A stretch of 56,542 nt of DNA, the filler included, from Dugesia japonica (taxonomy: Eukaryota), in the NCBI GenBank assembly GCA_001938525.1. It is 4 parts of 4 records of this genome, joined end to end, with 100 filler letters (N's around TTAATTAATTAA, not from the genome) between each part and the next. Parts side by side here need not be neighbours in the genome. Positions count along the whole stretch, not along the records: positions 26,978 to 43,380 come from MQRL01165966.1; 3 more parts are not named here. The stretch is one strand, 5' to 3'. The translations under genes and the position numbers were made by a program. The notes under the pieces are model-generated. The model had not been told where the DNA came from and did no database searches. It saw only the letters and a program-made list of their open reading frames with translations. Below, piece after piece: positions 21,138-49,931 of the stretch (positions are counted from its first letter, which is position 1; each line of letters opens with the position of its first letter).

Positions 21138-21238
21138 AGTTGGAAATAAATGTGACCTTAAAGTTTTGTTTGTATATTAAAGTGTAAATAATAAATATAT
21201 TTTCAAATTTCACGATGTCCGTTATTACTGATTTAACT
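21138..21238 (+). repeat. 5' LTR (101 bp, AGTT...AACT)
   Basis: Matches 25084-25184 with 6 mismatches in 101 bp (manual count). Confidence 0.97.
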
Positions 21239-21252
21239 GGCGATCACTGCCA
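21238..21252 (+). promoter_or_regulatory. Primer-binding site, probably tRNA-Arg
   Basis: TGGCGATCACTGCCA overlaps the last T of the LTR and resembles the TGGCGA(C/T)C... Arg-tRNA PBS class. Confidence 0.75.
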
Positions 21253-24200
21253 TGTCAATTCAATAAAAAGAAACCAAGCAGCAGAAGCAAAAAGAATTTA
21301 CTAAGCTTTACCTAAAGAATCGCGAGAACTGTTATTTCCAAGAATAACAAAATTCTCAGGAAATTATGATGAAGATCTAATTGCGTGATTGAAAGGAATT
21401 GAAACGTTCTCAGCCACAAATAACTTCTACCTCATGTCAACGTTTGACATTTTATTAGATGGCGACGCTAACAATTTATGGCTAGCTTGCAAATCACGAA
21501 CCAAAATGGACGNNNNNNNNNNNNNAGATTGATTCAAATTAAAGTTCATCCAAGATAAATCCTTTTTACGAATTACTGAAGATTTCAGTATAATCACTCA
21601 AAAGACTGATGAAAGATATGAAAATTTGGAATTACGAGTTATAAGAGCACTGAAAGAAATATTCGAACCAGGATTATCAATGGAAAAAATTGTGAAGCAA
21701 GTAATTCAAAAAAGAATAAAATCTCTAGATTTAAAATAAGCCTTTGTCCTGAAACCAGATTTGAATGCTGATGATATGCAACAGTTAGCTGAAAATTATG
21801 AAAAAAACGATGACATTGAAGAAAAGTCATAAGTCAATAAATTATCATATTCTGATGTGGCAGCAGCTAATTACTGTCCAATGTTGAAGAGAATGGATAC
21901 ATAAAAATTAACGGTTGGAATTACATGATAATTCCGGATAGGTCAATGGCATCAAAGCCAGCTCTATATGAACTATTTATGAACTATTTAAACAAGAAAA
22001 ACTTCACTGTTCCAATTTCGTCTGTGAAGTCAAGACAGTAAGAACAAATCAAAATCAAAATTTAAACGTAGAAGATGAGATGTATTTAAAGAGCGATGGA
22101 AGAACTTGAAGCGTGATTAAAGTGAATAGTAGAGGTGTAGAAATGTTATGGGATACAGGAGCATCAATTTCAGTAATGTATATGAATGCTTGGAAAAGCT
22201 GTGGTTCGTTTTCAGTGAAAAATTTAGAGATAAAATTGAATGGAGCACTTTNNNNNNNNNNNNNNNNNNNNNNNNNNNNNNNNNNNNNNNNNNNNNNNNN
22301 NNNNNNNNNNNNNNNNNNNNCAGAGTATAAGCCCAGAGTTCATTGGTGGAATAGACATGTTCAAAGTTTTTAATATTCAATTAAAAATGATTGGGTTAAT
22401 CGAGTCAGATAATGCAATGTGTGATGTTTCTGATGAGAATCGTTTAAGAGTCACTATGGACGTTTTCAAACCAAGAGATGACACCTTTAAAAAATTGTTA
22501 ACGCGTTTCGCCTCGATATTCATGGTGAATACTTTTGAACTGGGTAAAACACAATTAGTTAAACATTCTATCCAAACAACGGGGAATACTGTCTTACAAC
22601 AGCCAAGACGACTACTCATGCATCTAGAAGGCAAGATTGATGAGATAATTGAAACACTTGTCAAAAGCGGTATTATCTAAAAATGCAGTAGCCAGTGGAA
22701 CTCACTTATGATGATTGTTAACAAAAAGAATGAAAATATTCGTATGTGTCATGATTTCAAATTACTAAATGAAGCAACTCATAAATTTTCGTTTCCTATG
22801 CTAGATCGTCAGATGTTATTCGATTATCTTAGTGAGTGTACCATATTCTCAACAATAGATATAAACCAAGCGTATTATCAAGTCGAACTAGAAGAGAAGG
22901 AAAAAATTAAAACCGCTTTTTTTACTAAAAAAGGCCAGTACTGCTATAATCACATTCCATTTGGCCCTATCAACCGCTCCGGCTACGTTTAAAAAATTAA
23001 TGCATACAATTTTTTCAGATATTCTTTTTAAAGTCGTAGTTTATATCAATAATTTTCTAATCTTTGCGAAAAATTGGAAGGATCACGATCGCATTTTATC
23101 AGAAGTATTTCAAAGAATTTAAGCATCTGGTCTTAAAGTAAATCCAGCCAAATGCAAACTGTATCAAGAAGAGCTCGTGTTTTTGGGTCATACAATAAAT
23201 AAATTTAGATTAAAACCAAATTCGGAAAAAGTCAAGGAGATTATTAATGCAGTAATTCAAAAATGTACTAAAAATTTGAGATCTTTTCTTGGAATAACCA
23301 ACTATAAAAAATTTTTCGCAACTTAATACACCTTTATTTGCTGCTACCAAAGGTCAAAAGCACGAGATAATCTGGAAAAAATGCGAGACAAGTTTCAGAA
23401 AAATCAAGGAAGCTCTTTGTAATTCTCCAGTATTAGGGTATCCTAATTATGAAGATCAATTTATTCTGGATACTGTTGTCAGTTTTTCGAGATTTGGTGC
23501 TGTACTAAGGCAATCACAAAAAGGTATGGAAGTCCTTATAGCAAATGGATCATGGTTGCTGAACGCACATGAAAAAGAATATTGTGTGAACAGGTAGGAG
23601 TTATTGGCTCTTTATGAATTTATTCAACATTTTTGGCATTATCTTTATGGGGAAGGTTTTATCGCGAAAGCATATCACAAAGCTTTAGAGTTTGTAAAGA
23701 ATTCAAAAGAACCAATTACGCTGCAGTTTCAGACTTGGATGAACGAGTTATCAGAATATATTTTCGTATTGAAGTACAGAAAATAGGGAACATCATTCCA
23801 ATGCTGCTGTTATGCCAAGACTGATGTCTAGTTATTGTTCACAATGTCAAACTAAACATGAAAATGCCAAGTCTAAATCGTCTAAGGTAAAATATTTAAA
23901 TGTTATGAACGTTTTCAGAAGTGATTTGCACAATTACATAAAAGAATTTAAAGACGAATTATTTAAGGAAATCAAGATTCATTTGATGAACATATCTATT
24001 AAATTATCAGAAACTATAAAAACATCCCAGTATTTTAAATATTTAGGTTTTTAATTGCAGACGATATGTTGTTAATTGAGTCAGACAATGAGCAAAAGAT
24101 CGAGGTTCCTAAAAAATGAGTAACTAATTTTGTGAACAAAATTCACAGAGATTCATGCCATTTTGGAATAAAGAAAACAACAAAATTTGTATCTAATTAT

Positions 24201-25063
24201 TTCTTCTGGCCAAATATGATTACTGATATTCAGAATGCTATCAGAGAATGTCATTTTTTTATGCACAGGTAGGTTAGTAGTGAGGAAGTTAAGGAAAAAT
24301 AAATACCAAGATACGCAGCTTGGTATAAATTTTGTATCCAATTTTTGTATCCAACAAACAAATACATGATAATCATAATTTATCAGTTCAGTAAGTTAGT
24401 TAGTCTTTATGCAACCACAAATCAAAACNAAAACACGATCAAAAGTGCATTGTTAAATAACTGGAAAAACAAAATATGGAAAACCTAAACGTATTGTTTC
24501 TGATCGAATAAGAGGGTTTGAAAGAAAGGTTTTACAAGAGTTTGCTTTAAAATTTCATATTTCGTAAATATTTACATCTCCCATAAGCATAAGTCAAATG
24601 ATTTAGCAGAACGCGCAATTAGAACTGTCAGAGATATGATAGTAACATCCTTGAAATCTGTAGGAGAGGAGAAGTGTTGAGATGAAATCCTTCCAAAAGT
24701 TGAGTTTTCATTTAATTGCGCGATATCAATGGCGACAAGATTCTCTCCAATGGAAGTTATCTATAAAGGAAAGTTAATATTCATTCAACGAAAGAATTNN
24801 NNNNNNNNNNNNNNNNNNNNNNNNNNNNNNNNNNNNNNNNNNNNNNNNNNNNNNNNNNNAAAATGATGAATCAAGAAGAAAACCGAGTTGAAAGGGAATT
24901 TAAAGTTTAAGATAAAGTTCTGGTGAAGAGATATCCGACAAAACGAAAGAAAAGCGATTATATATATGATGGGCCTTTCAAAATTATGGAATTCCTATCA
25001 GTAAGATTGCAGAATTTGGAAGGTTCGACATACAGACGTAAAGAATTGCTGAAAAAGTGTTAA
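21252..25063 (+). pseudogene. gag-pol of the compact gypsy element (disrupted)
   Basis: Gag TKFSGNYDED; protease MLWDTGASISV; RT IRMCHDFKLLN, FSTIDINQAYYQV and IPFG; RNase H RELLALYEFIQHF; integrase SNDLAERAIRTV and YDGPFKI. Confidence 0.93.
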
Positions 25064-25069
25064 AAATCT

Positions 25070-25083
25070 GAAAGAGACGGAGA
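25070..25083 (+). promoter_or_regulatory. Polypurine tract
   Basis: GAAAGAGACGGAGA directly precedes the 3' LTR. Confidence 0.85.
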
Positions 25084-25184
25084 AGTTGGAAATAAATATG
25101 ACCTTGAAGTTTTGTTTGTATATTAAAGTGTAAATAATAAATATATTTTAAAATTTCACGATGTCTACTATTACTGATTTAACT
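25084..25184 (+). repeat. 3' LTR (101 bp)
   Basis: Direct repeat of 21138-21238, followed by TSD TAAAT. Confidence 0.97.
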
Positions 25185-26977: not shown

Positions 26978-27454
26978 GATTTAATCATTAATAATTTTAT
27001 TTTCCCAGCAACTTTTATTAATTAATTAGTTTCTCTGGCCATAAACAATGACGATAAACATGGTAGAGTTCTGTCTCAACAAATTACTTCGGGGCCCGTT
27101 AAGATTCGGTCCCCGAATCAGAATAATTGGAGTTTCTTTGGTCAGAATTTGCTTATTGAATTTGTATTAATTTGGGTTGATTTTCCGAGAGTAGTCATCG
27201 AACAATAAAAATGAATAAAAATATGCTATGTTTATCATCAATAGTATAAAGATAGGACTACACAGATATAAGATAAGAGTTGATAAGATTAAGCAAGGCA
27301 TGAAAGATCATATAAAAATGATCACACAAATGGATAAAAATTAAGTTAAATAAGTAATTACACATATGGATAAAGTAAGTGTAAATATAGTTTAACGATC
27401 ACAAGTTTAAACAGAATTTTCTTTGTAATATTTGAATTTATCCGCTGTTGTTAG

Positions 27455-28363
27455 TTAGATAACTGTATGGATTTGGTTGGAATCCTTCTGAAAAGTTATT
27501 TTGATGTGTGAAGGCTGTCTAATTGCATAGTACAATAAGTCGTGGAGGTATTCCAGATCCCGTATTTCTTCTTTATTCTCTTTTAAGTCTCCCGTTAAAT
27601 TTACTCCTCTTTGCGATAACTCCTTGATCTTGCTATTGCGTTTCTGAATGACCAATTCTCTTTTACTGCTCCACTCTTTCGTTTCTTGTAATAGCTTTTT
27701 TAGCTCAACATTTTCCCTTGCTACTTTGACAGACCTCTGCATAATCTGACGAGCAACTACTGCCTATAGCCTTTTGTTTTCTCGATTTGCCAGTATTACT
27801 CGATTTTGAACGTTTATTTCGGCCTGCATCTCTACCATTTCCATTTTCGCAAAGATTAATTTATCCTTATTAGATTTTAGTCGGCTTAATTTTTCCTGAG
27901 CCGCTTTTAACTTTTCTTCCAGGTCTTCTACTTGGTCTTTTCTTTTATCTGTAGTTACAACTTTATTTTTGTTGTAACCCCTGAGCATAGCCATTTTGTT
28001 TCAATGTTGAGCCTCTCCTATGATGTTACGGGTTGCGCGTTTTACGTATCTGAGTTCAGATACCTTCCTCTTAATACATAAGACCGCTACTTGCGCACTC
28101 TTTCTTTTCGATCTCTCATCTTCCCATCGATTTTTATGGTCTTCGCTAATTCGCGTCAGTACTTGATTTCACAAATTTTGCGCAATAGCCCACAGCTTCC
28201 ATTTTTCGGCTTGTCTTATTGTTGAAGCACATTGGTAACATGTTTTTTGACAGTTTGTTTCCTTGAGGGTTCCGTCTCTGACTGGCTTTCCTAGGTAGAG
28301 CCGGTCTCTCAACTTTCTAGCTTGTTTCCGTAAGGCTTTTGTTTTATTTGGTAATCCCTGCAT
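27455..28363 (-). pseudogene. ~300-aa coiled-coil protein with CxxxCxxC motif (accessory ORF)
   Basis: Track ORFs 28169-28363, 27764-27994 and 27455-27742 share one frame and join across three premature stops; K/E/Q/L heptad-rich. Confidence 0.8.
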
Positions 28364-29375
28364 CTGAATGATAAAGCGATTATCATTTATGATACTTATT
28401 TATAATGACTAATTATTAAATCGATTAATAATTATGAAAGTTATGGATTTAAATTAATACAGATTATTAATTCGTTTAATAATTGTAATCACAAATAATG
28501 ATAAGTCGATTATCACTGCCATACGTTATCGGTTCATAATTTGACTGTTTTCATTTTATTATTAATTCATTCAATAATTCCATTTAATGATAAATCGATT
28601 ATCATTATAATACATTGTTGGAACATTGTTTTACCATTTTAGTGATACTATTCAATTATTAAATGATTTTTGATTGACTTCTTTTATTATCAGGGTTCTA
28701 ATACTTGTTTACCAAATCGACTTCTGCTAGATTATTAAATCGTTTAATTATTCATTATTACGGCGTTCGTTAGTATTTAGTTAATTATTAATTCGTTTTA
28801 TAATTTAGAGTTAGCTGGATTATTAAATCGGTTAATAATCTTATTATTAATGCGCTTAATAATATTTGGTTAATTACTTTATGGTTTATTAATCTTATCA
28901 TTAATGCGTTTAATAATACTTGGCTACTTATCACTTCGTTTAATAGTTTTATGCTAGCCGAATTACTAAATCGTTTAATAATATATTATTAATTCGTTTA
29001 ATAACTTGTTAATTTGTTTAATCATGTTTAGTCAATTATAAACTTGTTTAATAATTTTATGTTAGCCAGATTAATAAATTGTTTAATAATTTAGCGTTTT
29101 GTTGGATTATGAAATCGTTTAATAAGCTTATTATTAGTGCGTTTATTAATTTATTCAGACAATTGATTTTATTAAATTTTCTTTTCAGTTAATTTTTGAC
29201 TTTTTGACACCATCCTTTTGATTGTTGGGTTTCTGAGATTGGCACGACTCTGTCATTAATTTTCATACTTCTTTCTTTCTGTGCATATTTTTTTGGTATT
29301 TTATTTGGTAATTGACTACTTTTACTGTTTTTGTATTTTTATTGAACTTTTTTATTTTTTTCTGTTTTTTATAAT

Positions 29376-30818
29376 TTACAATTTTTTTACATGTACTACA
29401 CTTTCTTTACCCACATTTCTTACTTCTATAAATATGTTACCACCTTTTACGAAATTTGTTAGCACACTTTTTATTAATATGAACGTTGGAGATCCTGATC
29501 CTTAGTTCATATCGGATATAGGTTTCTGAAAGAAGATCTCGCTTGGCTTACCTTTATATATTTCGCCATGCCCTTCTGACCATCTGTCGTATCCTGGGGT
29601 TATTCTCATACTAACTTTGTTTGCCATGGGCCATTTTAACTGGTCGTCATATTTTCCTTTTCTAATTATAAAGAAAATTTTTAAATGAGTTCTTCTTCTT
29701 AATCCATCTCTATTAGGGTAAATTCTTAAAGACACGAGTTAACCTTCTTTAAATATAAAAAATGGTGGGCTGGTATAATGTAGGCTGTTATATCGTCCAT
29801 CTTTCCCATCTGAAGATGATCTTACTATGGCTAATTTGTGTGCGAAGTCTTCTATCTGCCATATATAAGAGCATACTGATGTCTTGACCTCTGGTGGTGT
29901 TGAGGGTAAAGATATAATGATTTGGCTGTGTTTCTCCTTTATAGCATTCCATAATTGGTTTTTTGTTTCGTACATTTTGTTGAATAAATCGTTTATCAAC
30001 TCCAGGGTATGATTCTTTAGGTTTTCTTCTACTTGAGTTACTCTTTGTTCAAAATTAAATGTGATAGCTTGGATATGTTCTTTAGCCTTTTTGAAAATAT
30101 GCTCATTTACCTTTATTCGGGTTCCTTTGAATCTAGAATCACGGGCATTCTTTAAGTTCTTTAATGCATGTAATTATGTGAGTACTCACTTTTACTACTT
30201 CTTCGCAACAATTGTTAGGGCATTTGGCCATTAGTTCTTGGCATACTTGTATTTTATGGGGGTTCATGTGGTTTTTCATGGGTTTTCTCAACAAAAATTG
30301 TTAACAATTTCTGCATACTATTTCTGTCATGGGGCATAATTCTTTAAAATGTTCCTCTTCGTTGAATTTAAATATGGGTGTTTTACACTTTTCGCACATT
30401 ATCGGACCTTTAGAGCAGTTCATTGTGTGTTCGTCTAGATTCATTATTTTCTCTTCAAATTCGCACTCTGGATACGGGCAGGTTCTTTCAAGACCCGCCA
30501 TTTCTCTGGCTATTGATCAGTCAGGTAGAACTTGTATATTTTCTTCGCATTCAATATTAAAACATTTATTCTGGTTTTCTATAATTTGTTTACTGATGAC
30601 AATATCTGCATCCACAGCTACTTTACATGAGTTCCATCATTATTAGGTTGCACTTGGTACATTTATAACGCGTTTCTATTTCTTCTGCTGACTCGAGGTT
30701 CTGTATTAATTTTACTACATTTGCTAGTTTTTTGCGAGTGGTGTTGCATCTGCCTGAGGTATATCGATTGGATTGGTTGTTACATCCTGAATATTTACAA
30801 TTTGTTAATTCTTTTCAT
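29376..30818 (-). pseudogene. TRAF-family protein (RING, TRAF zinc fingers, coiled coil, MATH), intron-less, disrupted
   Basis: RING CTKCNLIMMELMxSSCGCRYCHQ...KCFNIEC; VLPDxSIAREMAGL; ZnFs CPYPEC...H...C, CEKC...H...C and CPNNC; MATH YIWQIEDF, YTSPPFF, SLRIYPNRDG, THLKIFF, GKYDDQLKWP, FQKPISDMN and FVKGGNIFIEV. Confidence 0.93.
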
Positions 30819-30965
30819 AATTACAATTTCTAATTATCAAAACGTAGGTACATATAATATTATTAATGGTTATAATTTTTGTCAGGCCTTTAAATTTATT
30901 TACATTTATTTTTATTTTTGGAATGTTTTCTGGGACGTTGAAGAAGGTATGAATTGTTCATTCTC

Positions 30966-31421
30966 TTAACGTCTTTCTTCCTCATTAAGTAATATGTCTA
31001 GTAAACTTCGTGTGCCTCTCGTATCTCCTAATTCATTCTGTATTGTAACATTGTGGTTTGTAATAGTTTGGATTTCTATTTCATTATTATGTATAATATT
31101 TCTTTGTTGTTGAATGATGTTCGGGTAATATTGGTGTGTGATGGTTGCTTCCCATAATTGGCGACGAGCTTCCAATGACGCCGATTCTGTTGAAACTAAT
31201 AATGAATTTAAAGTAACAAAATGTTGTTCCCATAATGCTTCTGATCTAATACTTTCGTATACTGGCATAGCTGCAAAGTTTATTTCATTTGCTGCAATTA
31301 CTGGTGGATGAGGAAATTCTATTGGAAAGTTGAGTTATCTGACAATTTGGATTCTTTTATTTACATTTGGCTGTTCACTGGAATGAAAGACTGGTCGTAG
31401 TGATTGATTAGCTTCTGCCAT
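30966..31421 (-). pseudogene. Small accessory ORF of unknown function (~150 aa)
   Basis: ATG at 31421 is in frame with track ORF 30966-31268 across one TAA; MAEANQSLRPVF...LLDILLNEEERR. Confidence 0.6.
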
Positions 31422-31576
31422 CTACAATATTATTTTTCATCAATTTTCTCTACTATTTTTACATATACAATCATATTTCTGCATTTAATACTGATAATTT
31501 TTCTAATTTTTTATATTTTTACAATATTTATTCTTTTTACATCTGTACGATAGGAGTTTCTTTATGCAAAAGTGTA

Positions 31577-33726
31577 TTACGGTGATCCACTTATATCTGT
31601 TGACCACATAATTTTTGCCCTATCGAAGGGTAGCTGATAATTATTATTTCGTTGGTTTCGCATAGCGACAGGGAGTCTTAATCCTTTGTGCTGCCCCCTG
31701 AGTCGCTTGACTATTAATATTGTTGCTATTATACATGTTATGCAGAAAATTATTGAAGTTGTTGCTGCTAACACATTTGTCTTTCAGTTCTCTGTCTTTG
31801 GTGTATCTATTAATATTGCTGAGCTTATACTTATTAATCCCGCGTTGTAAATTGATGCAATTGTCGTAGCATTTGGTTTAGGTATTTTTTTTATTATTTT
31901 TTCTAGAAATGCTTCTTGTTTTAGAGTTAATACATTACCTTCTTCATTTTGTGGTTCTGGTTGTTTTGTTTCCTTTTATTTTGCCGTTTTTATCTTTTCT
32001 GTAGTTCGTTTTTTTGTTGTTGGTACCTTTGATGTAGATGAGATCTTTTTGTAATTTATTTGTTGGATTGAAATTCGTCTGTTTTTCAACATGACGAGCT
32101 GTAAAAATAAAATTTTGTTATATATGATGAATTCTTTAATAAAGCTGTCTTTCTCAAATTCTGAGCGTTCTACTGCTAATCTATTCGTTGGTTTTAACCA
32201 TTGTTTAAGAAGGTTGATTTGTTCGATTATCATATTTTGTGCATCTAGACTGGTCTATTCTATTTTTGCAATTTTATTCGAGTGTCTTATAAATGTATTT
32301 ATTTTCGTTTTCATCGTTATGGATTGGTTTTTTACTTCCAGCATTTGTGGTTTGGTATCCTGCATTCGATATCATTCGATGCTTATTTCTTGTCCTGAAA
32401 AACTCATAACCATCACATATATTTTGTTGTAACTGAATTTTATTAGTTGTTCGACTTTAACTGTTTCTGCTGTTGTACATCCATTAAATGTTACAATCCT
32501 GAATACCTGCTTTGTTGCGGTCGTAAACGTTATTAGAATAATCCGTTTATGTGTAATTGTACTAGTTTATTATTCATTGATGGACTCGTTTTATTTCTCT
32601 ACTCTCGTAAAGTATTAGTGGTTATTACAATTATCGTTGTCAAATTGAATTATTACTATTTTTAACAGTTCTGAAGTTTGCAATTTTATCTTCAATCCTT
32701 CGTTGTTATTACTTAAGAGTATTCTTGCTCTTGCCTTTTCGGTTGGTAATGCTAGTTTTAATTCTGTAGTTTTATTAAGGAATGTTTTTCTGGTCTATGT
32801 TTCTTCGCTTGAAAATTCATCACGACTGATAGTCTCTATAATCTATAATCTGACTCTATAAGCAGGTGATGCTCTGTATGTACATATTCTGTTATTTTAC
32901 AACTTTGGCTGGTGCATTTTCCTAATAATGCCAATATCATTAGAGCCCATAGTCGATGTCCGCAATATAGTATAACAATACCAGCTAGCAACAAGCTTAT
33001 TCATAGTTCGTATATGTCCCTGTCAATTATAGTTTGTTTGCAATTACATGGTGTAGATTTTCGTTCTTTTGCTTGTGATATTGGTAACATTAATATAACC
33101 ATTATCAAAATTAATAATATTCCTGATGCAAATGAGCTGAATAAATTTCTGAATATTGTTGTTTCCGGTTTTGATTCTTCTTGTCTTCCTTTTTAGGGTT
33201 GATCGTCTAATTCGTTTATTTTTTCTGAGCCGGCATTTTCCGTTGTTTCTCTTCGCTGCTTTGCTACCACTTGTTCCTTGTTTAAATGTAGTGGGGTGTC
33301 CAGAATTTAGTTATTTTGATCTTCCATCAGCTTTCCTTGTAATTCCTTATCTTTTGTTTGGTTTTCTTTTTCTGCCTACTTTACATATGCTATCCTTTGT
33401 GTTTGCTGTGCCCAACTAGATTTGAGTTCTTCGTACTCGACCATTTTCCTGCTAATGACTACCATTGAATATCCTCTCTTTATTTTAAAACTCTTGCCGT
33501 CCTCGGCAATGTCCTTCATTTCCATTCGTTGGGAATCGGTTATATGTCGTCGGAATTTGGTGTCACTCGCTGAGTTATTTGCTTTTCGACTTTCTTGCGC
33601 TTTATTTCCTTTGATATTCTCCTTGGTGGTAATGGGTGTTCCATGCTCACTTTGTCTAGTTTTATATGAATAGATCGTTCCATACGTAGTATTATTTCGG
33701 TCGTGCTTTCTAGACAGTTCATACAC
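31577..33726 (-). pseudogene. Env-like multi-pass membrane protein region
   Basis: Hydrophobic segments GILLILIMVILMLPISQA, ISLLLAGIVILYC and LWALMILALLG; ~380-aa ectodomain with N-glycosylation sequons (NKT, NES, NQS, NAT); C-terminal TM VLAATTSIIFCITCIIATILIV followed by basic KRLR and a short tail. Confidence 0.6.
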
Positions 33727-34779
33727 ATTTCTTTTACGTCTTTTGTAGTTATTGGTAGTGGTTTATTAATTGTTGCATCCTCGTGACAACATCCTTTCTT
33801 TTGTCCATTTTTTCATATATTCGTTTAATTGCTTCTCTAACTGGTAATATTGAGGTTTCTAATTGATATTTGACAGTAATTAGACAGTGGTAACACATTT
33901 TCTTTAACTCATTTCTGCTCACTGGTAATGTTGAAGGTCGAACTCTTTTACTATTAGACATTTGATCCGCTTTGCTTCAATTGTTTTTTTCGGTTTTGTT
34001 TTCTTTTTTACTTTCCCGATCTTTGGTTTTCAGTTGTGAGTTGTTGCTTGGTAGATATTTGTAGTAATTGGAATAACACCATTTTTTGGCCGTCGTCGAC
34101 TGCTCTGTTTACTTGAAATTTTGCCTGTTTTGTAGTTTGGATACCATTCTGCATGTTTACATCCAACTAATCTAATTTTTTGAAACTTTGTTCGCATGAA
34201 ATTAGCTGCTGTAACTATTTCCGTTTTTGTTGTTGATAGATAGTAAGCAAAATAATTTTGTATACTTTCCTTGTTGATAAGGAGTTGTTTAGGTATTCGC
34301 AGTATCTAAAACATTTATTGTCTTTGCATTGATTTCTGTTTTTATCTTGTACACGGAATAATTCCCTCAATTCTAGGGCTACTGCTGCCTCTGATACCAT
34401 TAATTCATTTTAAAAAGTAATATTACATTGGTAACAGTCAAATCGTGCTGTTCTTTGATCTATTGGTATTGTGTTTCTTTGAGTGACACCACATTTTTTA
34501 CAAGACTTTGTTTCTGAAACTTTGTTGATTTGCAACATACAAATTTGTTCTAGTTGAGATCTGAGATGATAATCCTTTACTTCTGTTGGTGGTTAAATTC
34601 GTATTTCTCTTGGATTTCGTCCACATTTTAATCCTTTGTATGGCAATTTTTGTTAATCATCCGAGTTACTCGATACTTCTTGAGTTGGTTTTGTTTCTCT
34701 AATTTTTTTACTTCTGTTTCTTGGGTTTTTGTGATAAATTTTTCATCTGTAACCTTTGTTAAAGCTGCCTTTTTTACAT

Positions 34780-36640
34780 CTATTCACATGAATCCATAGT
34801 GGTTTCTGAAGTATTTAACCAACTTATCTGACTTTTACATTTGTTTCTGTGACTACTAATACTTCGTAAGGCCCTTTGCCTGGTCTATTTAACTTTGATA
34901 TTGTGTTGACTTCTTTTTCTGGAGTATTAACTAATACTTTATCTTCTTCTTTGAACATATGAGGTTTTGCTTTCTTGTCATGATAATCTTTGATACTTTC
35001 TTGATAATATTTGATATTTAATCTTACTTTATTCCAGATCTCTTGTATTTTCTTTTTCATTCAAATGACATACTCTTCTTGTTCCATATATTGTAATATG
35101 GGAGTCTGGTATTCCAAATCGATTGGTAAATTACATTCTCTTCCATACATGAGAAAAAATGGAGTATAATTAGTGGCTGGTATTTGGAAGCAGTATTTGG
35201 AAGTATAAAGTGACTTCAGTAAAAATATCACTCATACAATTTTGGCCTTGATCCATTAGGATATTTTTTTGGTGTACCATATTTCAGCAAGTTTCATTTA
35301 CAAATATTTCTGCAATTGTTGTGGCTTTTTGATTTTTCATTGGTTATGTTTCATGATACTTAGACAGATAATTCATACATACCAGAATGTATGAGTTTCC
35401 ATTTACAGTTTCGTGTAATGGTCCAACCACGTCCATCACCATTTGGTTTAGTTGGTATTAGCATTAGTTTGAATGATGCTTTTTCTGAAGCTCCTGTTCG
35501 TCTTCTGGAAGCGCATATCTGACAATTTTCTATCCAATCCTTTACATCTTGAGCGATTCTTGGCCAATAAAATTTGTGTCTTAGATTGGCTTTTGTTTTT
35601 CTTGTTGACATATGTCCTCCGAGTACTCCATTATGTTATTGCTGTAAAATTCATTCTTTGTGTGATTTTGGTACAAATATCGCCTTTTTATATCCATTCT
35701 GTACCATTAACCATCCCTTTTCCATTGTGTAACGACATCCATTTTTCAGTAAGTGTTCTTTCATTTATGGGTCGAATTTTAGTGCATCACTTTATTTTGC
35801 CATTATATATTTCTTAATAATTTTTGCTTCCGAGTCTTCCTTTTGATCCTCCTTGATATGTTCAAAATTTATGTCCTCTGATAATAAAAAACAAATAGCT
35901 TCTGTTTGTTCGTTTACAAGTTCTGGAAATATTGCACGTGATAGACAATCTGCATTAGAATTTGCTTTGCTGCTCCTAAATTTTATTTTTGTCATGTACT
36001 CTTGTAAACTCATTGCCCATTTTACCAGTCTGAGAGTTTGTAAGGGTTTCTGGCTAATCATAGTTAGTGGTTGATGACCTGAAAATATAATGACTTCATG
36101 TCCGAGAAGTAGATGTCAGATTTAAGTCGGTTTGACTTTTAAATTCCTAGTGTCGAAGTCTAACGAAGACTGTTTGAAGATCCTCTATGTGTTCTTCAAA
36201 TGACGTTGAGAACATTAGTAGATCGTTTATATATACCATACAATGTACTATACCATGTGTGACAAAATTCATGCATCTCTGAAATGACGCTGGTGCGTTA
36301 GTTAGACCAAATGGTATTCGAATAAAATGATATAAATCGCGTCCTGCTGTAAATGTTGTCTTTTTCTTATCTTTTGGTTTGATTTTTAATTGCTAATATC
36401 CGCTTCTTAGATCAAGTGTTGAATATGTTATCGCTCTTTATTTGCATTGTTGCATTTTCTCGTTGAATTGAGCCGCTTATCTGTCCGAGCGGGTAGATAA
36501 CTTGTCCGTTCAGAATATTAACTCTTAATTTAGTCCCTTTCATTGGTCTGTGTGTTTGTGGTGGAAGTGCATCTGCTCCTGTGTCGATCAATGCTATAAG
36601 TTCTATGTCATTAATTTTTACTTTCATTAGTAGACCACCT
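34780..36640 (-). pseudogene. pol (PR-RT-RNase H-integrase) of the giant element, with internal deletions
   Basis: ALIDTGA; TLDLRSGY, IPFGLTNAPASFQR, VYINDLL; RLVKWAMSLQEY...NSNADCLSR; HHCC GGHM...FYWPRI...CQIC; MDVVGPL, ILMDQG, TPFFLMYGRE, KGPYEV. Confidence 0.95.
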
Positions 36641-39600
36641 CCTCCCACTGTTGTTTCTGTACAGACATTTCTTGTTTCTAAGTCTTGACTGCTCTGCATT
36701 GTTAATGATTGCCGGTTTTGTACCGGTGGTTGTGCATTGTCTTGTAATACCATTAAGCTTCTTGAACTCCTAATGTTCTGCTGTATTATTGGTTCCATTT
36801 AATGTGGCACTGGTGAATTTATTGGTTGCGATATTGTTTGGCCTGGTAATACTGAATTCATTGGCATAGTCCAACTTAGATTAAGTAGTGGATTTGAAAA
36901 ATCGTATAATCTAGGTACTCGTCTCAATTGTGTTGGATCTTCCATTGGTTAATATAATCCGTCATTACCTATAACATCTGTAATAGATAAATTTGGTACT
37001 TGTAGATTTCCTAGATCATAGGTTTGTGCATGTCTTTGATACATATATTTGAATGATTTTTTAACTTTTTTATTTTTTGATTTCCTTCTGGCCTTTTTCT
37101 TCTGTTTTCTGTCTTTCCGTACAACCTATTCATAATCTGGAGTTTTTTTCTCTGTAATAACTTGTTGACTGAATATTTCCTCCTGATTCATTGCTATCAC
37201 TACAGGTACTGTTGTATGCTAGAGTTTTTTGTCTGGTTACTTCAGTTCTGCTTATCTTTGATTTTGGTTGTTCTACTTCCATGATTTCAATATAATCATT
37301 TTATTTGGGAGTCTAGATCTCCACGCTGTATGATCAAATATAGTTTCGTCTGGTTGGATCTTTTCGTAATTATCATCTAAAAGTGCTGAATCTCCTCTAC
37401 CCGTTGTATGGGTACTTGTTCTTTTTGGTGGATCAAAATTTGCTAACAATCGTCTAAAAGATCGCATAGATTCACCCGTACTTTGTTTTTTTTTTGACTT
37501 CATTTGAGTTTTAATATTTTCTGCTTCTGGTTGGTGGTAACTTTCTCTTTAAGCTCGCTACTTTTGGTTCTTATTGATGATTGAATTGGTTTGTCCTTTG
37601 TTCGAGTACTACCTCAACTATACTTGATTGATCCTTTCTTGCGCTCGTACTTGATTGATCATCTATTTCTATTATTTCTGGAATTTCTTCTTATTTCTTT
37701 AACCAATATTCTGGTGGTATAGGGCGTACTGTAATTGCGTTCGGTCGTTTTGAGTTAAGTCCTCGCATGCTGATAATTTCATCATTTTGAATCGATCTGC
37801 CTCGTAATTGGAAAAAATATGGTTCAACCCATGGTAATCTCTTCTTTATTTTTCCCATTCTTTTGTATTCTAATACTTCTATATTTGAAGTTGTACTATC
37901 TGGATCTGTTTTTTAAGTTCAAAATTGTTTGAAGGATCTTCTTCTATTTCCATTCTACACCATTTTATTTATCAAATTTTTTAGATTTTCATGCAACCAA
38001 TACGTTCCCTCTTTTAAATGTTGTAACTATTCGACCACAATTCTCAATTCTTTAAGTGACACATCTTCTTCACATGCCTTTTAAGCTACTCGTATTATTT
38101 CTCTCGTAGGAACTGGATCCCTTCTCAATAGCGGAACGAGCTCATCTAGAATGTTCTTTTGTACATCCGCTGATAACATAGAGATACTTTCTTGGCCTGA
38201 TTTCACTTTATATTCTGTTTCTAGATTCGACGCGCTTGGATCTGATTTTTTAAACCGGTCCTTAGATATTTACTCTCACCAGACTTCTTGATGTATTCAA
38301 TTTTTAACTCGTCTGGTATCACTGGGTTGAGTATTTTGGCAAATTGTCGTATTATTTTCTCTGATTACTCTGAGATTCTAGATAAGGATAAATAAGGGTT
38401 TTCTTGTGGCTCTTCACTACCGTTAACATATAGTTTCAACTTCGACCCTTTTCATAGTACTAATAATTTAACTGGTACTTTATCGTAATTTTCGATTATC
38501 TCTTGACCGTAAAATATTGATATATCTTTTTCTGTTACTGAAGTAACTTGTATATCATCATCATCATCTGATTCCTCTACTTATTCATTTTCTTGTCTTA
38601 TATTAATTGCTTTTACGAAATCTTTTTTAACTTGACTCCAAGTGTCGTCTTCATAATTGATCAATGTATTTTTTTTGACTTATTTAGATATTTCAGCTGC
38701 ATTTCAAAATTTGTGGTTTCCTGAATCTCTTCACTGTATGCTGATACTAAATTGTTGATTGCTATCCGCAGTTTTTCTCCTTTATGTGCTTTAATTTTAT
38801 TGAATCGGTCAATAATTTTTCGGATATTTTTATCCTTCAAACTGTTAAAATTGTATAAAAGTGTCAACACGATTCGAGTTAACTTTTGATCATGTGGCTG
38901 GTCCAATTTTGCTGTTTTATCTATGTTATGTTGTGGGACCAACGTTTTCCGGTTAAGACCTTCAATTACTCTATCACAACTATCCTTTACTGATTTTACG
39001 ATGGCTGATACTATTCTCATTACTTACCGCTTCTACATCGTCTACATTTTCTTTTAGCCGTCACGGAAAGTCTTTGATTATTGATATTAAATCTCCGGAA
39101 CTTGTTGATGGTAGCTTTTTGATTACTTGATATTCTTGTACGAATCGTAGTATAACTTTGTAGTCGTCAACTAAAGTGTTTTGACGCAAATCCTCTTTAT
39201 ATTTCTTTAGCATGTCTGCCCATTGCAATCGCGTGTAAAGATCAATGTGATGATGATTGTATAATTCTGGTAGATGATTTATAACTTCCCAATACATCGA
39301 TATTGGGATCTTTCTTTTAACTCTTTTTTGTCTCTTAATCATTTGAGTATAACCTATAAAGGTTAGAATTTTTTTAATTTCTTCCGAGTCTATATTGTAT
39401 GTTTCATCGGGTTTTATCTGTAATTTTTGTTTACTAGTTCTTGATATATCTTCATCGTTTGATCTTTCGTCTAGATTTTTCAAATGTCATTCGTTGACTT
39501 TGTTGTTTGAATTGTGCTTCGCAGCATGTTTATTGTTACCATTGTAGTTGGTATTTTTGGTTTAATTTATGTTTCGAAGATATTTAGTATATTTTTATTT

Positions 39601-40500
39601 TATTTCGCTACGAATACGAAATCGTTTCCACACCTCTGCTGGTGTGTCGGGAAATTCATCGGGATGTATTAACATTGGCCTTGTTTCTACTCCAGGTCTC
39701 ACTCCTGCATTACACAAATGTTTATTGCTGCAATCGATGTACACTAGATTCCAATTATTTTGAATAATGTTTTCATCCAGTGATTTGTTTAATGGTAATT
39801 TTCGTAATTCTCGTTTTAGACTACCTACTAAAACGAAGTCAAGCTCAATTCATTGGCTTTCTTTTGCAAATTCCACCATGATTCAGAATCCACTGGCCCA
39901 GGTTATTGTAAATATTTTATGTCTGTAATCTTTTACTGAGGCTGCCCAATTTGATTTAACTGGTAATGCTACTGCATATTGTTGGCATAATTTCTCAATA
40001 TTAAATAATAACTTCTTGTAAGTTTATGTTGTTATCAGATTTCTCTACTATTGGGCTTTTTCCAGTGCCAATGTAGCAATCATTATTTCTGGGGAATCAT
40101 CTACAAATTTTCTCGCTTGTTTTGCGATTAGCATTTCTCTTTTATTCACTACAGCTTCCATTTCTCTAACCTCTTTTATCGGAATTTTAACTGGAATTAC
40201 CACACCTGGCCTAATATTAGGTTTGGCTACTTCTATGACTTTTTTTAAGAGTTCTTCCTTTAATTCGTTGCCCAGTGCCTTGGCTTTTTGCGTTTCCTCA
40301 ATAACTATTTTTGTATAAACCTCTACTAAAAAGCGATCTTCTAAATGTTTTAGTATTTGCTTAATACTTCTGGATTCGTAGAAAGCCTGTAGTATATTTC
40401 GTGATAAGTGGATTTTATTCCACTAAACCATTTTTATTATGGTTATCTCCACTGGACTGATACCAAAGGCAGTAATATGAGCATTATCATCATTCAGATT
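36640..40500 (-). pseudogene. ~1300-codon coding-like region of unknown function between nucleocapsid and protease
   Basis: Chain of same-strand ORF fragments (39061-39483, 38661-39020, 37273-37503, 36412-36798) with protein-like composition and no AT-rich non-coding gap. Confidence 0.65.
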
Positions 40501-41202
40501 GATGACCGTTTGCCCTGTAATAGCTGTATTCCATTCTTTCCGCAATAGTTGCAATATATTGCTCTGCTATCTTTATTTTTGTTTTCGAATCTCCTGAAAT
40601 TAGAATTTTTTTCACTATTATTACGTGTATTAAAATTATTTCTATTGTTATTTCTGTTATCTCGTTGAAAATTAGAGTTTATATTACTATTTCTATCTTG
40701 TCTAGGTGTAAATGGTTTCATTATTGTTTGAGTTCTAGGTATAAATTGTTCTATTTTTGGTGCTGTTTGCTTTTCTTTCTCTACTGCGAAGATTCGTTCT
40801 GATCGCTTGCAGACTTTTTTAGCTAACATAGCTAACCCGATTGCTTCCTAAACTGATTGGGGTCTATTCGTTGCTACCCACTTTTTGACTTCACGGTTTC
40901 GTATACTATCGATAAAGATACTAAGTATATGATCATCGGATACTTCTCCTTTGTATGCTATTTCACCAAGTCGTTTGAGTTCACTAGCATATGTGTGATA
41001 AGATTCATCTTTGTGTTGTGGTCTTCAATCAAATTCTTTGAATTCTTGGCCTCTTGTTCTTTGGCTTGTAAATTTTCCGTGAGAATTTCTTTGGCTCTCT
41101 CCCATGAGCTTGGCAATTCGGTTAGTTGTTTTGTTTTATCGAGATATAATCTTTTAGCTGCTCTAGTCATGGATGATATTATTCTGGAAACGTTTTCCGT
41201 TT
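40500..41202 (-). pseudogene. gag (capsid-like part, N/R-rich linker, truncated zinc knuckle)
   Basis: ELPSSWERAKEIL; RDNRNNNRNNFN; YCNYCGKNG (first half of a CCHC knuckle). Confidence 0.75.
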
Positions 41203-42350
41203 CTGTATAAATATAAAATTTTCTGAATATTAATTTGTTAATAATAATAATTATTTAATTTAAAATCCGAATTATTTTTGATTACATATCTCGTAAATCA
41301 GTTTGAACAGTTTCATTGAATATATTTTTTAAAACCATTAAACCTTATTTTTTTTATTGTCTTAAATCGTACTTCAAAAGAAGCTCAAAAGTTATATATT
41401 TCGCATTCTACTTATAATTATTTTCGTACTTCTTTAAAGAAGCTCATTTATTTAACCCTTAATCAAATCATTCTGGTCAATTTTCTAGTTTATTTCGTCA
41501 ATCTTAAAATCTAGTTTTGTTCAATCTAAATCGCTTATAATTTTATCGTTTCCTGCGAAGTTTTGTTTAATTCTATTTATTATTCTCCAATTTCTCTTTT
41601 GATTATCACCATCCAGTTTTACATTTATTGTTGTTCGTTGTCTTATTTTGTTTCTTAGTTGATCACCAGTTATCGTTCAAATATAATAATTCGTTTATTA
41701 TTTACTATTGCCAGTTAATATAACTCGCTTATTATTCTCCACAACTTCTTTATCAATCCAAATTAATAATAATTCGTTTATTATACTATCAATTTATTGC
41801 TTTATGCCAAAATTTATTAAATTATTTCGTTTAATATTTTGTTTTAATTATATCAATTTGTTTTCAAAATTAATTCGTTTAATATCATTATTTTCTATTA
41901 ATTCGTTTAATAAGTTTCCGTCATAATTGAGTTTGAAATAATATTAATTCGTTTTAATATTTTAATATTCATTTTATTTCCTCCGAATTTTTACGATTTA
42001 ATATTTATTCGTTAAATATTTAAATTATTAATTCGATTTATAATCTAATTTATGTTTAAATTTTCTTCATTTTACAATAGCAATATTAAATATACCGGAT
42101 CGTTTAACATCTAAATTTTTAATTTTGTTTAAATTTACCCAAATTACATTTTTATTTTCTATTTGTTTAATATTTTATAATAGATTTAATAATAGTTTGA
42201 TTTTTTAAAGCGTTTAAAATATCGACAGCATTAATTTGTTTAATACCAAAATAATAATCCGATTAATATTTGAACTTCTTATTATTAATTCAATTGTTAT
42301 TTTAATATTGAGTTCTTTGCTGTTTTACTTTCCCTAAATTTTTATCAAGT

Positions 42351-42367
42351 ATCCCAACTGAGCCCCA
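42351..42367 (-). promoter_or_regulatory. Primer-binding site, tRNA-Pro-like
   Basis: Minus strand TGGGGCTCAGTTGGGAT resembles the Pro PBS TGGGGGCTC...GGGAT and lies ~1.1 kb upstream of gag. Confidence 0.75.
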
Positions 42368-43380
42368 AAAATTCTTTTGGGGTCATGGATGATATGACTC
42401 AAAAATTATATCACTCACAACCCTCAAAACTGGGATTTAAATACCCGTCCTGAGAGTATGTTGATGGCAGCCCGGTGACTTTTGTCCGACGTCAAGAGTG
42501 CATGAGCGCACCACATGCGTATTATTTAGGTTCATTATTGAAGTCGACGATAGAAGTAGTAATGGAAGGGAGTTTAATCATTTGTATTTATAGTAATTGA
42601 TACGCACATGTACAATACATTTATAAGTGTTATAAACAGTATTGTTAATTTATCAATGATCTTTCAATAAGTCTACAAAAATCTTTCGGATTTTTCTGGG
42701 TGGAGGAACTGAAGATGGTGTTGAAGGCTGACTATGCAGGAGTTCGCTCAACTGCTTGTTTTCGGTACGAAGCCATTCAACCTCGGCATCTAATTCCAAA
42801 ATTCGCATACCCTGCACAGTGTCCCTTCGGGTAAATTCTATGTTCAGCCGCCTGAGCTGCGACATTTGGAATACCAGCATACCAATCTTATCCTGCAATG
42901 CTTGGCATGCTCTGGACTAGTTGGTTGTCGTAGCCAATTGACCATCAAAACTGGCCGCTATTTGTACCTCCTGACCAAATGTTCTGCTGGGACAGAGTTG
43001 AAACAAATGTTGATTCGCGACATTTTGTGGAGCATTCTCGTCCATATCTAAACATTTCAGAATAAATCATGCTTAGTCCTGCGAGATAGAGACTTACTAT
43101 AATGCTTATGGCAAATAACGATATTAGATATGTAATATTTTATATAGTAAAATTATTAAATTTACAATTTTATAATTAGTTAATAACATCCATAAATTAA
43201 TAATAATTAGTGGTTTAGAGTAAAACTATAATAAGGGAATAATAGTAGTTACCTATATCAATAATGGTCGTTGGTGCTTACAAGGTGAATATTAAGTAAT
43301 AAAAATAATAATCCCGTAACAATAGTGATGTCGAAAATCTTACTAATAGTAATAATAGTAGTATGGCCATTGTGAGGTAA
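42368..43380 (-). repeat. Presumed 5' LTR (partial) of the giant element
   Basis: Directly upstream of the PBS; TATA-like TATTTAAA at ~42436-42443 (minus). No second copy is visible to confirm it. Confidence 0.55.
42653..43045 (-). pseudogene. ~130-aa coiled-coil ORF inside the presumed LTR
   Basis: ATG at 43045 is in frame with track ORF 42653-42898 across one TAG; RILELDAEVEWLRTENKQLSELL coiled coil, then PPPRKIRK. Confidence 0.65.
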
Positions 43381-48262: not shown

Positions 48263-49931
48263 GGTTCTATGATAAAATATACTCAGACAAAATATATCAG
48301 ACAAAATATATTAAGACAAAATATTTTGGACAAAATATATTGTGAAAAAATATATTGAGACAAAATATATTCAGACTAAATACATAATGACAAAATATTT
48401 GGACCAATTATATAACGATTAATTATATTAATTAACTATTAATGTAACTATTAAATAATTATTAATTACATAAATTATTTCATTAAAATAAGATAAGGCT
48501 TATAAATCAAAAAATTAAGATCATTAAATTTTATAAAAAAAATTTAAAAATAATAAAAATAATAAAAAAAATAAACCNNNNNNNNNNNNNNNNNNNNNNN
48601 NNNNNNNNNNNNNNNNNNNNNNNNNNNNNNNNNNNNNNNNNNNNNNNNNNNNNNNNNNNNNNNNNNNNNNNNNNNNNNNNNNNNNNNNNNNNNNNNNNNN
48701 NNNNNNNNNNNNNNNNNNNNNNNNNNNNNNNNNNNNNNNNNNNNNNNNNNNNNNNNNNNNNNNNNNNNNNNNNNNNNNNNNNNNNNTACATAAATTATAT
48801 TACTCCAAATATTTTAATATATTTTGTAAGGGAATGCAAGTGAATGTAAATAAGGGAATGAATAATCAACAAATTCAGGAATACAAACACACTATCAGCG
48901 GTGGTACATTTTTGCGAATCAAAGATGTTAATAAAGTGTTCAAAAATCTTAGAAACATAGACCATTTCAAAGATGACCTAGATAATGTAAATTTCTTGTT
49001 GGATTATTTTGAAGACAATTATATTGGTCATCTGCGACATAAACAGAGTGCAACCTAGGTTTCTAATTAGCATTTGAAATCAATATGAACGTGTAATTAA
49101 CGACCTGCCAAGAACCAATAACGCGGCAGAAGGATGGCATAGTGCATTGAACTCTGTGGTCACATCCAACTGTAGGAAGACTGGCTCAAAAATGGCAACA
49201 ACAACAGCACACCTCAGCTATCAAGAGAAAAAAAATTAAAACTGGTCAACAATTCTGGTTACAACTCAATGGATCCACTGACATATTTAAAGAATATTGC
49301 TAGTATTTTGAATATTAATGTGACAAAGTTAAGTTTTGTTAATTAAATTACAATTTTGTTAGTTAATTTATTGGTTATTAATTTTTTTTGTTAAAAATAT
49401 TATTATTAATAATGTTATTTATTAATGTTTTTTATATTGTGACATAGTTAAATATTATTTACTATAGACTCTCGATTATCCGTATATTGATTGTCCAGTT
49501 TTCGGATTATTTGTGTATTTAACTAAATTATTAATTAATAAATAAAACACATATATGTGAAACCTAGTCTCACTGTTAAGCTGTAAAATTTATACATCAA
49601 TTTATTGATAGTTTGATATTTGATCAAATTAATTTTATTTAATCATATATTAGTATAACTTTTATTTGACAGTAATGCAGGTTCTTCAAATTGAAAAACT
49701 TTGAAGATGTCATCATATATATTTTGTCTCAATATATTTTGTCACAATATATTTTGTTTCAATATATTTTGTCCTAAAATATTTTGTCCTAATATTTCTT
49801 GTCATAATATAGTTTGTCCCAATATGTTTTGTCTCCAAATATTTTGTCTGAATATATCTTGTCGTAATTTATTTTGTCCTAATATATTTTGTCTAAATAT
49901 ATTTTGTCTAAGTATATTTTGTCTTATAACC
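48263..49931 (+). mobile_element. Internally deleted MULE/Phantom-like DNA transposon
   Basis: TIRs GGTTCTATGATAAAATATACTCAGACAAAATATAT and its inverse ...GTCTTATAACC are built of ~15-bp tandem units. TSD AATTATTT at 48255-48262 and 49932-49939. Transposase remnant LLDYFEDNYIG...NDLPRTNNAAEGWHSALN at ~48990-49155. Confidence 0.9.

What the first reader, a model, noticed from the sequence alone, without database searches (positions are those of the whole stretch)
29376..30818. Complete intron-less TRAF E3 ligase/adaptor carried by a retroelement
Seen: RING, several TRAF zinc fingers, coiled coil and MATH in one intron-free, co-oriented frame, decayed like pol. Known: TRAFs relay TNFR/TLR signals to NF-kB and JNK and are targeted by viruses such as EBV LMP1; planarians have an expanded TRAF-like family. 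Inference: a captured host gene acting as decoy or survival factor, and part of the host TRAF expansion may be retroelement-borne.
Basis: partly seen in the sequence, partly recalled or inferred. Interest (0 to 1): 0.85.

Follow-up and report, generated by a model that had tools for sequence, protein, structure and literature searches.

The report
Giant retroelement carrying whole TRAF gene
A broken, intron-free copy of a complete TRAF signalling gene lies inside a large, highly repeated gypsy retroelement and is itself highly repeated, so it is likely cargo that live copies once used to steer host cell-death and immune signalling, a fuller form of the TRAF-domain cargo already reported for planarian Burro elements.

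Summary
At 30818-29376 (minus strand) a complete TRAF (RING variant, five zinc fingers, coiled coil, MATH) is collinear with an intact 446-aa relative and has no intron. It is not one frame: it has 3 frameshifts and 5 internal stops. It lies 3' of gag, PR-RT-RH-IN and a membrane-protein ORF of a decayed gypsy element over 14 kb long. In 3 of 3 contig runs the TRAF has 0.40-0.44 of the element body's depth and 4-7 times that of the 3' flank. Its stop density and silent-site bias match gag-pol, and no TSD or true poly(A) was found. It is therefore likely co-amplified cargo, not a one-off pseudogene. No listed contig bridges the junction, no genome was held, and no LTR pair is in the contig. TRAF/MATH cargo is already reported for planarian Burro elements, once as a separate accessory ORF. 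The full-length form 3' of pol is what I did not find described. Function is inferred and this copy is dead. Related poly(A) transcripts come from other loci. Verdict: new variant of a known kind, with a testable link to the planarian TRAF expansion.

The parts
29376..30818 (-). Decayed intron-free full-length TRAF (TRAF2/3/5-like); 3 frameshifts, 5 internal stops
   Evidence: PDB best matches of the relatives' profile are TRAF2 and TRAF3
30593..30733 (-). RING variant, first five ligands (C-x2-C-x11-C-x-C-x2-C); the domain is cut by a break near 30590 and its last two Cys lie in the next piece
   Evidence: 36% to P0001; alignment; no Pfam hit alone
30142..30582 (-). End of RING, four TRAF-type zinc fingers and the start of a fifth
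   Evidence: 56% to P0001; zf-TRAF E 7e-4; ligand spacing read from the sequence
29871..30131 (-). End of fifth finger, coiled coil (TRAF-N) and linker
   Evidence: the matching part of P0001 is one helix, residues 225-283, in an otherwise low-confidence model
29421..29870 (-). MATH / TRAF-C domain
   Evidence: PF22486 E 1.7e-14, PF21355 E 9.6e-19
29268..29377 (-). A-rich tract after the TRAF stop (65% A, longest A run 7) ending in a 13-nt purine tract; possible old poly(A) remnant, UTR or PPT
28400..29250 (-). Degenerate array with strand-specific TAAACG words (3' side)
   Evidence: 8 sense, 0 antisense; shuffle mean 0.77, max 3 of 100; periods 30-54
27410..28363 (-). Co-oriented decayed ORF, 318 codons, Cys pair and coiled-coil-like; lower copy than the element core, membership uncertain
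   Evidence: (no significant Pfam hit)
30966..31421 (-). Small co-oriented ORF (151 codons, 1 internal stop) just upstream of the TRAF; unknown
31577..33200 (-). Decayed ORF with hydrophobic N-terminal segments, N-glycosylation sequons and a C-terminal membrane-like segment, in the usual env position; env not shown
   Evidence: no Pfam hit; no PDB hit
33200..34760 (-). Decayed coding-like stretch after integrase with Cys pairs; unknown
   Evidence: no Pfam hit; high depth
34760..36624 (-). Gypsy pol, order PR (36624-36568), RT (36461-36138), RNase H (36118-35996), integrase H2C2 (35674-35501) and core (35445-35194); shortened between PR and RT and between RT and RNase H
   Evidence: RVT_1 4.1e-15, RT_RNaseH 4.6e-5, Integrase_H2C2 1.3e-18; rve 9.2e-5, protease 0.043; best PDB matches for the RT piece are a RT/RNase H chain at 3.7e-17 and Ty3-G Gag-Pol at 1.6e-16
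36700..40530 (-). About 3.8 kb of decayed coding-like sequence between gag and protease; unknown domains
   Evidence: (no significant hit)
40530..41170 (-). Gag-like region ending in a broken Cys knuckle
   Evidence: recognised by eye from the translation (motif recalled); no Pfam hit; highest depth bin
41250..42350 (-). Degenerate array with the same TAAACG words (5' side)
   Evidence: 7 sense, 0 antisense; shuffle mean 1.31, max 6 of 100; only 43-46 nt align to the 3' array
42653..43045 (-). Upstream short ORF (130 codons, 1 stop), coiled-coil-like; membership uncertain
   Evidence: bZIP_1 E 0.044, weak

Best explanation
This is a dead copy of a large gypsy retroelement in which a complete, intron-free TRAF gene lies downstream of pol, likely as accessory cargo captured long ago from a spliced host TRAF2/3/5-like mRNA and amplified with the element, and in live copies it would likely have acted as an adaptor that tunes TNFR/TLR-type death and immune signalling in the element's favour. 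Shown: domain set, lack of introns, position and strand, decay, high depth continuous with the element body. Inferred: capture from mRNA during reverse transcription; long residence under protein-level constraint, because silent sites have the element's A bias while the zinc-finger ligands are kept; expression as a separate ORF; trimer formation through coiled coil and MATH (known TRAF behaviour, recalled). Only about 0.4 of the body's depth covers the TRAF, so it may be carried by a subfamily. The direction of the effect (pro-survival or pro-death) is open. Odds: cargo about 0.85; a function useful to the element about 0.65 given cargo.
For: (likeness 80; ratios): TRAF bins 82-117 thousand in X1, against body mean 245 thousand (lowest bins 110-135 thousand), 3' flank 9-20 thousand, and 13-19 for the two listed contigs nearly identical to the window. 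TRAF/body ratio 0.40, 0.44, 0.43 in X1, X4, X8 (3 of 3 contig runs, two organism labels, two studies). The bin holding the spacer and small ORF next to the TRAF is at body level (222 thousand). No joint that skips only the TRAF among the 15 of 192 shown; share running on into unlike sequence 0, 0, 0.01. Four-fold sites A 0.50/T 0.23, like pol (0.62/0.20; p 0.11 against gag+pol) and unlike the one host gene tested (0.43/0.42; p 1.2e-4). Equal stop density. The same strand-specific word array lies before gag and after the TRAF. Precedent: MATH_TRAF_C, BIR, BCL2 and ankyrin in Burro (PMC6431247 section 7).
Against: The tool warns that summed contig depth is no copy number. None of the 24 of 68,785 pieces shown bridges TRAF and upstream ORF. 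No genome was held, so no second pol-linked copy was read directly. No LTR pair in the contig. The most A-rich 100 nt of the element follow the stop codon, as an old poly(A) would. Only one host gene was used for the codon comparison, and the pol set included some codons outside the frame. The three closest relatives (P0001-P0003) have no known context. Function is untested; the RING has His replaced by Cys, and the serine run of the TRAF2 binding groove (recalled) is not kept in this copy.
Confidence: 0.65

Rival explanations
1. The TRAF is real cargo but a passive passenger: captured once, amplified with a subfamily, of no use to the element.
For: Only about 0.4 of body depth covers it; no selection test was possible; pol of this copy is shortened at two places, so the family may be non-autonomous.
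Against: Silent sites have shifted to the element's bias while zinc-finger ligands and MATH stay 45-56% identical to an intact relative; stop density is no higher than in gag-pol; similar cargo recurs in Burro elements.
Confidence: 0.18
2. The TRAF belongs to a separate high-copy mobile unit, or to a tandem host family, that only neighbours the gypsy element here.
For: Depth steps down about twofold at the TRAF's 5' end; no bridging contig among those shown; RNA depth on the TRAF is 20 against 5.1 on the body, and those reads come from other loci.
Against: No terminal repeats or TSD of 12 nt or more around it; the two loose ends shown near its 5' end (30734, 30778) resemble the adjoining window sequence by eye rather than foreign flank; the same ratio to the body in three runs.
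Confidence: 0.12
3. An independent processed pseudogene of a host TRAF inserted into this one element copy.
For: Intron-free; A-rich tract (65% A) right after the stop.
Against: Depth thousands of times that of window-identical contigs; longest A run 7; no shared word of 12 nt between the two flanks, and 1 of 11 nt against 0.46 in shuffles; silent sites unlike the host gene.
Confidence: 0.05

Closest known systems
Burro1-4 / GYPSM1 giant gypsy elements of Schmidtea mediterranea and the Burro-like element of Dugesia tigrina (as described in PMC6431247, section 7 read whole)
   Same: Large gypsy element with a long insert between gag and protease, accessory ORFs, tandem arrays and TRAF-type cargo; in D. 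tigrina MATH_TRAF_C is also a separate accessory ORF; decayed fragments are reported for D. japonica.
   Different: The review names only the MATH_TRAF_C domain, inside ORF1 or upstream of it; here a RING, five fingers, coiled coil and MATH form one ORF 3' of pol. No BIR, BCL2, ankyrin, SUMO, dUTPase or env hit was found here. The gag-pol span is about 6.4 kb against a 4,873-aa ORF1. A membrane ORF lies after integrase.
Animal TRAF2/3/5 adaptors (PDB 1czz, 1kzz, 4gjh) and planarian TRAF-like genes (PMC7586133, PMC6109357; passages)
   Same: Domain order RING - zinc fingers - coiled coil - MATH; MATH closest to TRAF2/3 (E 3e-29 for the relatives' profile) rather than TRAF6 (6e-9).
   Different: Intron-free, inside a retroelement, His-to-Cys RING variant, short coiled coil; forms a separate clade with three unnamed metagenomic proteins (99/98 support); this copy is broken.
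ISKNV ORF111L viral TRAF (PMC3352826, abstract)
   Same: A TRAF-like gene carried by a selfish element and acting on host death signalling.
   Different: DNA iridovirus of fish, intact, shown to be pro-apoptotic through TRADD and caspase 8; no sequence comparison was made here.

Membership tests
TRAF family | C-terminal MATH/TRAF-C domain | tested here: met
   PF21355 68.4 bits, cut-off 27.4
TRAF family | TRAF-type zinc fingers and coiled coil before MATH | tested here: met
   zf-TRAF E 7e-4 but under cut-off; 56% identity to P0001; relatives match TRAF5/6 RING-finger structures at 1e-10; helix 225-283 in the P0001 model
TRAF family | Canonical C3HC4-type RING with ligase activity | tested here: inconclusive
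   His position is Cys in the window and in P0001-P0003; window piece has no Pfam hit, P0003 hits TRAF3_RING at 3.4e-4; activity not testable
Ty3/gypsy LTR retroelements | pol order PR-RT-RH-IN and Ty3-like RT | tested here: met
Ty3/gypsy LTR retroelements | Two LTRs, PBS, PPT, TSD | tested here: inconclusive
   No LTR pair within 26978-43380, which is bounded by assembly gaps; one purine tract at 29280-29268; PBS not searched
Burro giant elements | Total length over 30 kb, single ORF1 of about 5,000 aa | tested here: not met
   Contig piece 16.4 kb; gag to integrase end about 6.4 kb in this shortened copy
Burro giant elements | BIR, BCL2-like, ankyrin, SUMO-like, env between gag and PR, dUTPase | tested here: inconclusive
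   No such Pfam or PDB hit in any minus frame, but breaks lower sensitivity and no profile-profile library was on hand
Burro giant elements | MATH_TRAF_C cargo | tested here: met
   position differs (3' of pol)
Burro giant elements | RT groups with Burro RTs | not testable with these tools
   No Burro sequence was retrievable (searches found no relative)
Processed pseudogene | Own poly(A) tail, TSD, single locus | tested here: not met
   only an A-rich tract

The most novel reading that the evidence does not exclude
A large share of the 'expanded planarian TRAF family' is retroelement cargo: gypsy families carry complete TRAF genes, express them as separate poly(A) transcripts to rewire host death and immune signalling, seed domesticated host copies, and are the reason why planarian piRNAs degrade a multitude of traf mRNAs.
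Probability: 0.25. Interest if true: 0.82.

Novelty: new variant of a known kind. Interest (0 to 1): 0.55.

Why it matters
Two published puzzles meet here. The TRAF family is greatly expanded in planarians (121 MATH domains, PMC6109357 passages) and its significance is called unresolved (PMC8807557 passages). SMEDWI-3 piRNAs degrade 'a multitude of traf mRNAs' and ankyrin transcripts (PMC6824462, section 14 and passages), which are also the cargo domains of Burro elements. A complete TRAF amplified inside a gypsy family gives one testable cause for both. It also warns that counts of TRAF genes and RNAi phenotypes may include element-borne copies. The host is inferred to be a planarian from composition and element type; no call names it.

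Tried and rejected
No genome was held, so no copy census or intron survey was possible. Protein search with the window's coiled coil and MATH gave 1 hit of 1,194 candidates; with P0001, 4 of 3,113; with the RNase H-integrase piece for longer proteins, 0 of 137 at E 1e-20, which is weak evidence. The library of protein representatives never opened, so a TRAF fused into a long polyprotein was not searched. Metagenome scans gave 0 of 331 and 5 of 174 stretches; those five are distant TRAFs (26-32%) that share nothing else with the element. Viral contigs gave 0 of 39 and 0 of 22. The AlphaFold model of P0001 had mean pLDDT 50 and was not used for a fold search. The Atlas placed P0003 among eukaryotic TRAF clusters (0.95) and added nothing on host; the membrane ORF has no Atlas result. 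The membrane ORF and the gag-PR insert had no significant hit in Pfam or PDB, nor, for the pieces given, in NCBIfam. The two word arrays are not LTR copies of each other. No RNA holder listed in the indexed runs. Earlier findings of the scan: none in 3 look-ups. Grohme 2018 was not held, Jurka 2007 was not looked up, and the review's supplements were not readable; these may already describe a full-length TRAF ORF. Two frames were mis-set in scripts (3' ORF, upstream ORF) and those rows were dropped.

Full report
Setting. The window is an AT-rich animal scaffold with many gaps and one intact host ORF of the ASC/ENaC family at 5991-7760. The finding lies in a 16.4-kb piece, 26978-43380, between two gaps. 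From about 27,000 to 42,000 the minus strand is A-rich. No whole genome was held. That the host is a planarian is my inference from composition and element type; no call names it.

The observation. Six-frame reading shows a TRAF on the minus strand. Pfam finds MATH (E 9.6e-19) and zf-TRAF (7e-4, under the cut-off). The one hit among 1,194 candidates, P0001 (446 aa, unnamed), aligns in three collinear pieces, combined E 3e-115, with 36, 56 and 45% identity; P0003 adds the N-terminus. The gaps between pieces are 10 nt, so there is no intron. The gene is in four pieces, with breaks near 30730, 30590 and 30135 and five internal stops. By ligand spacing there are five zinc fingers. The RING has Cys at the usual His position, as in P0001-P0003, so ligase activity is not assured. 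A profile of the three relatives matches TRAF2 and TRAF3 best (3e-29 to 8e-29) and the TRAF6 MATH far less (6e-9). In a tree of 10 rows over the C-terminal 200 residues, rooted at the midpoint for drawing only, the window's TRAF groups with P0001-P0003 (99/98), apart from a mollusc TRAF and five distant metagenomic TRAFs.

The element. Reading 5' to 3' on the minus strand: a short ORF, an array of TAAACG words, a gag-like region (by eye; no Pfam hit), 3.8 kb of unknown coding-like sequence, PR, RT, RNase H and integrase (Ty3 Gag-Pol at 1.6e-16), a Cys-rich stretch, a membrane-protein ORF in the env position, a 151-codon ORF, a 147-nt spacer, the TRAF, an A-rich tract, a second TAAACG array and a 318-codon ORF. 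Pol is shortened at two places. No LTR pair lies in the piece; the LTRs may be lost in the gaps. None of the unknown ORFs had a significant hit.

Is the TRAF cargo? Four of 24 listed runs were laid at likeness 80. In X1 the three TRAF bins have summed depths of 82, 96 and 117 thousand. The 19 body bins average 245 thousand (lowest 110), the four 3' flank bins 9-20 thousand, and the two listed contigs nearly identical to the window 13 and 19. The TRAF/body ratio is 0.40, 0.44 and 0.43 in X1, X4 and X8. The bin with the spacer is at body level. None of the 15 of 192 joints shown skips only the TRAF, and almost nothing laid runs on into unlike sequence. The tool warns that these sums are no copy number, and none of the 24 of 68,785 pieces shown bridges the junction, so linkage in other copies is inferred. 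Three sequence tests agree. Four-fold sites resemble gag+pol (p 0.11) and differ from the single host gene tested (p 1.2e-4). Stops are 5 of 471 against 11-12 of 696 codons (p 0.46-0.61). The same strand-specific word is enriched after the TRAF (8 against a shuffle mean of 0.77) and, less clearly, before gag (7 against 1.31, shuffle maximum 6). Against: the most A-rich 100 nt of the element follow the stop (65% against a mean of 43%). Its longest A run is 7, though, and no flanking repeat of 12 nt exists. It may be a relic of the first capture or a UTR.

Expression. In the poly(A) run X14 (about a quarter read) depth on the TRAF averages 20 against 5.1 on the body. Of 1,441 reads laid on the whole piece, 1,143 are under 90% alike, and at 29983 all 24 reads differ from the window. 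At 29556 only 2 of 31 RNA reads carry the letter that 88% of X1 depth carries. So the transcripts come from other loci, probably a lineage apart from the bulk of DNA copies: a host gene, a domesticated copy or another subfamily. This copy is not shown to be expressed.

How it likely works. An ancestral gypsy element likely took up a spliced TRAF mRNA and kept it as a downstream accessory ORF long enough for silent sites to take on the element's bias while the protein motifs were kept. A subfamily then amplified it. TRAFs trimerise through coiled coil and MATH and bind receptor tails (recalled). An element-made TRAF would compete with or mimic host TRAFs. Planarian TRAF-like genes are needed for cell survival (PMC7586133, listing and passages; PMC8807557, passages) and Burro also carries BIR and BCL2-like domains, so a pro-survival role is my first guess. 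The iridoviral TRAF ORF111L is pro-apoptotic (PMC3352826, abstract), so the direction is open.

What is known. PMC6431247 (section 7 read whole) reports MATH_TRAF_C in the polyprotein of Burro1/GYPSM1 and, with other motifs, in Burro2-4, in an upstream accessory ORF of a D. tigrina element, and decayed Burro fragments in D. japonica. It already suggests meddling with apoptosis and ubiquitination. So TRAF-type cargo in such elements is known. I did not find a full RING-finger-coil-MATH ORF 3' of pol, or a link between retroelements and the TRAF expansion, in six searches. The element works like a Burro but does not pass the size test and shows none of the other Burro cargo, so I do not file it as one.

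Why it could matter. TRAFs are expanded in planarians (PMC6109357, passages) for reasons called unresolved (PMC8807557). SMEDWI-3 piRNAs degrade many traf and ankyrin mRNAs, and the traf-6 example has a neighbouring transposable element (PMC6824462, passages and section 14); in the passages I saw, the paper reads this as gene regulation. Element-borne TRAFs offer a simple, testable alternative.

Verdict. Real feature; cargo likely (about 0.85); mechanism as stated 0.65; new variant of a known kind; interest 0.55.

Noticed in passing
window 5991-7760 (-): Intact, intron-free 590-codon ORF of the ASC (ENaC/degenerin) family, Pfam E 2.4e-47; used as the host control for codon bias.
   Followed up: partly
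window 21138-25184 (+): A second, ordinary decayed gypsy element with RT, RNase H and integrase hits and 101-nt direct repeats (94%) at 21138 and 25084 that may be LTR remnants.
   Followed up: partly
window 18567-19430 (+): 287-codon ORF with a stretch that recalls Polinton-type DNA polymerase fragments (resemblance from memory); no Pfam hit.
   Followed up: partly
window 42294-43380: Poly(A) RNA depth of 27 and 16 in the last two bins, with many loose ends, one ending in an A run; contigs of organism B are 98-99% identical at 42484-42944. May belong to another repeat or an LTR-like region.
   Followed up: no
window 36138-36624 and near 36130: pol is shortened between protease and RT and between RT and RNase H; whether this is private to this copy or marks a non-autonomous subfamily is unresolved.
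   Followed up: no
window 31577-33200 (-): Membrane-protein ORF with no homolog found, next to the TRAF; could be an env or a receptor-like partner of the TRAF.
   Followed up: partly
P0001-P0003: Three unnamed TRAFs from short metagenomic contigs, each a single ORF (P0002 shorter), share the His-to-Cys RING and form one clade with the window's copy; their context is unknown.
   Followed up: partly
window 48322-48414 and 49687-49968: 15-nt tandem arrays in inverted orientation, about 1.3 kb apart.
   Followed up: no
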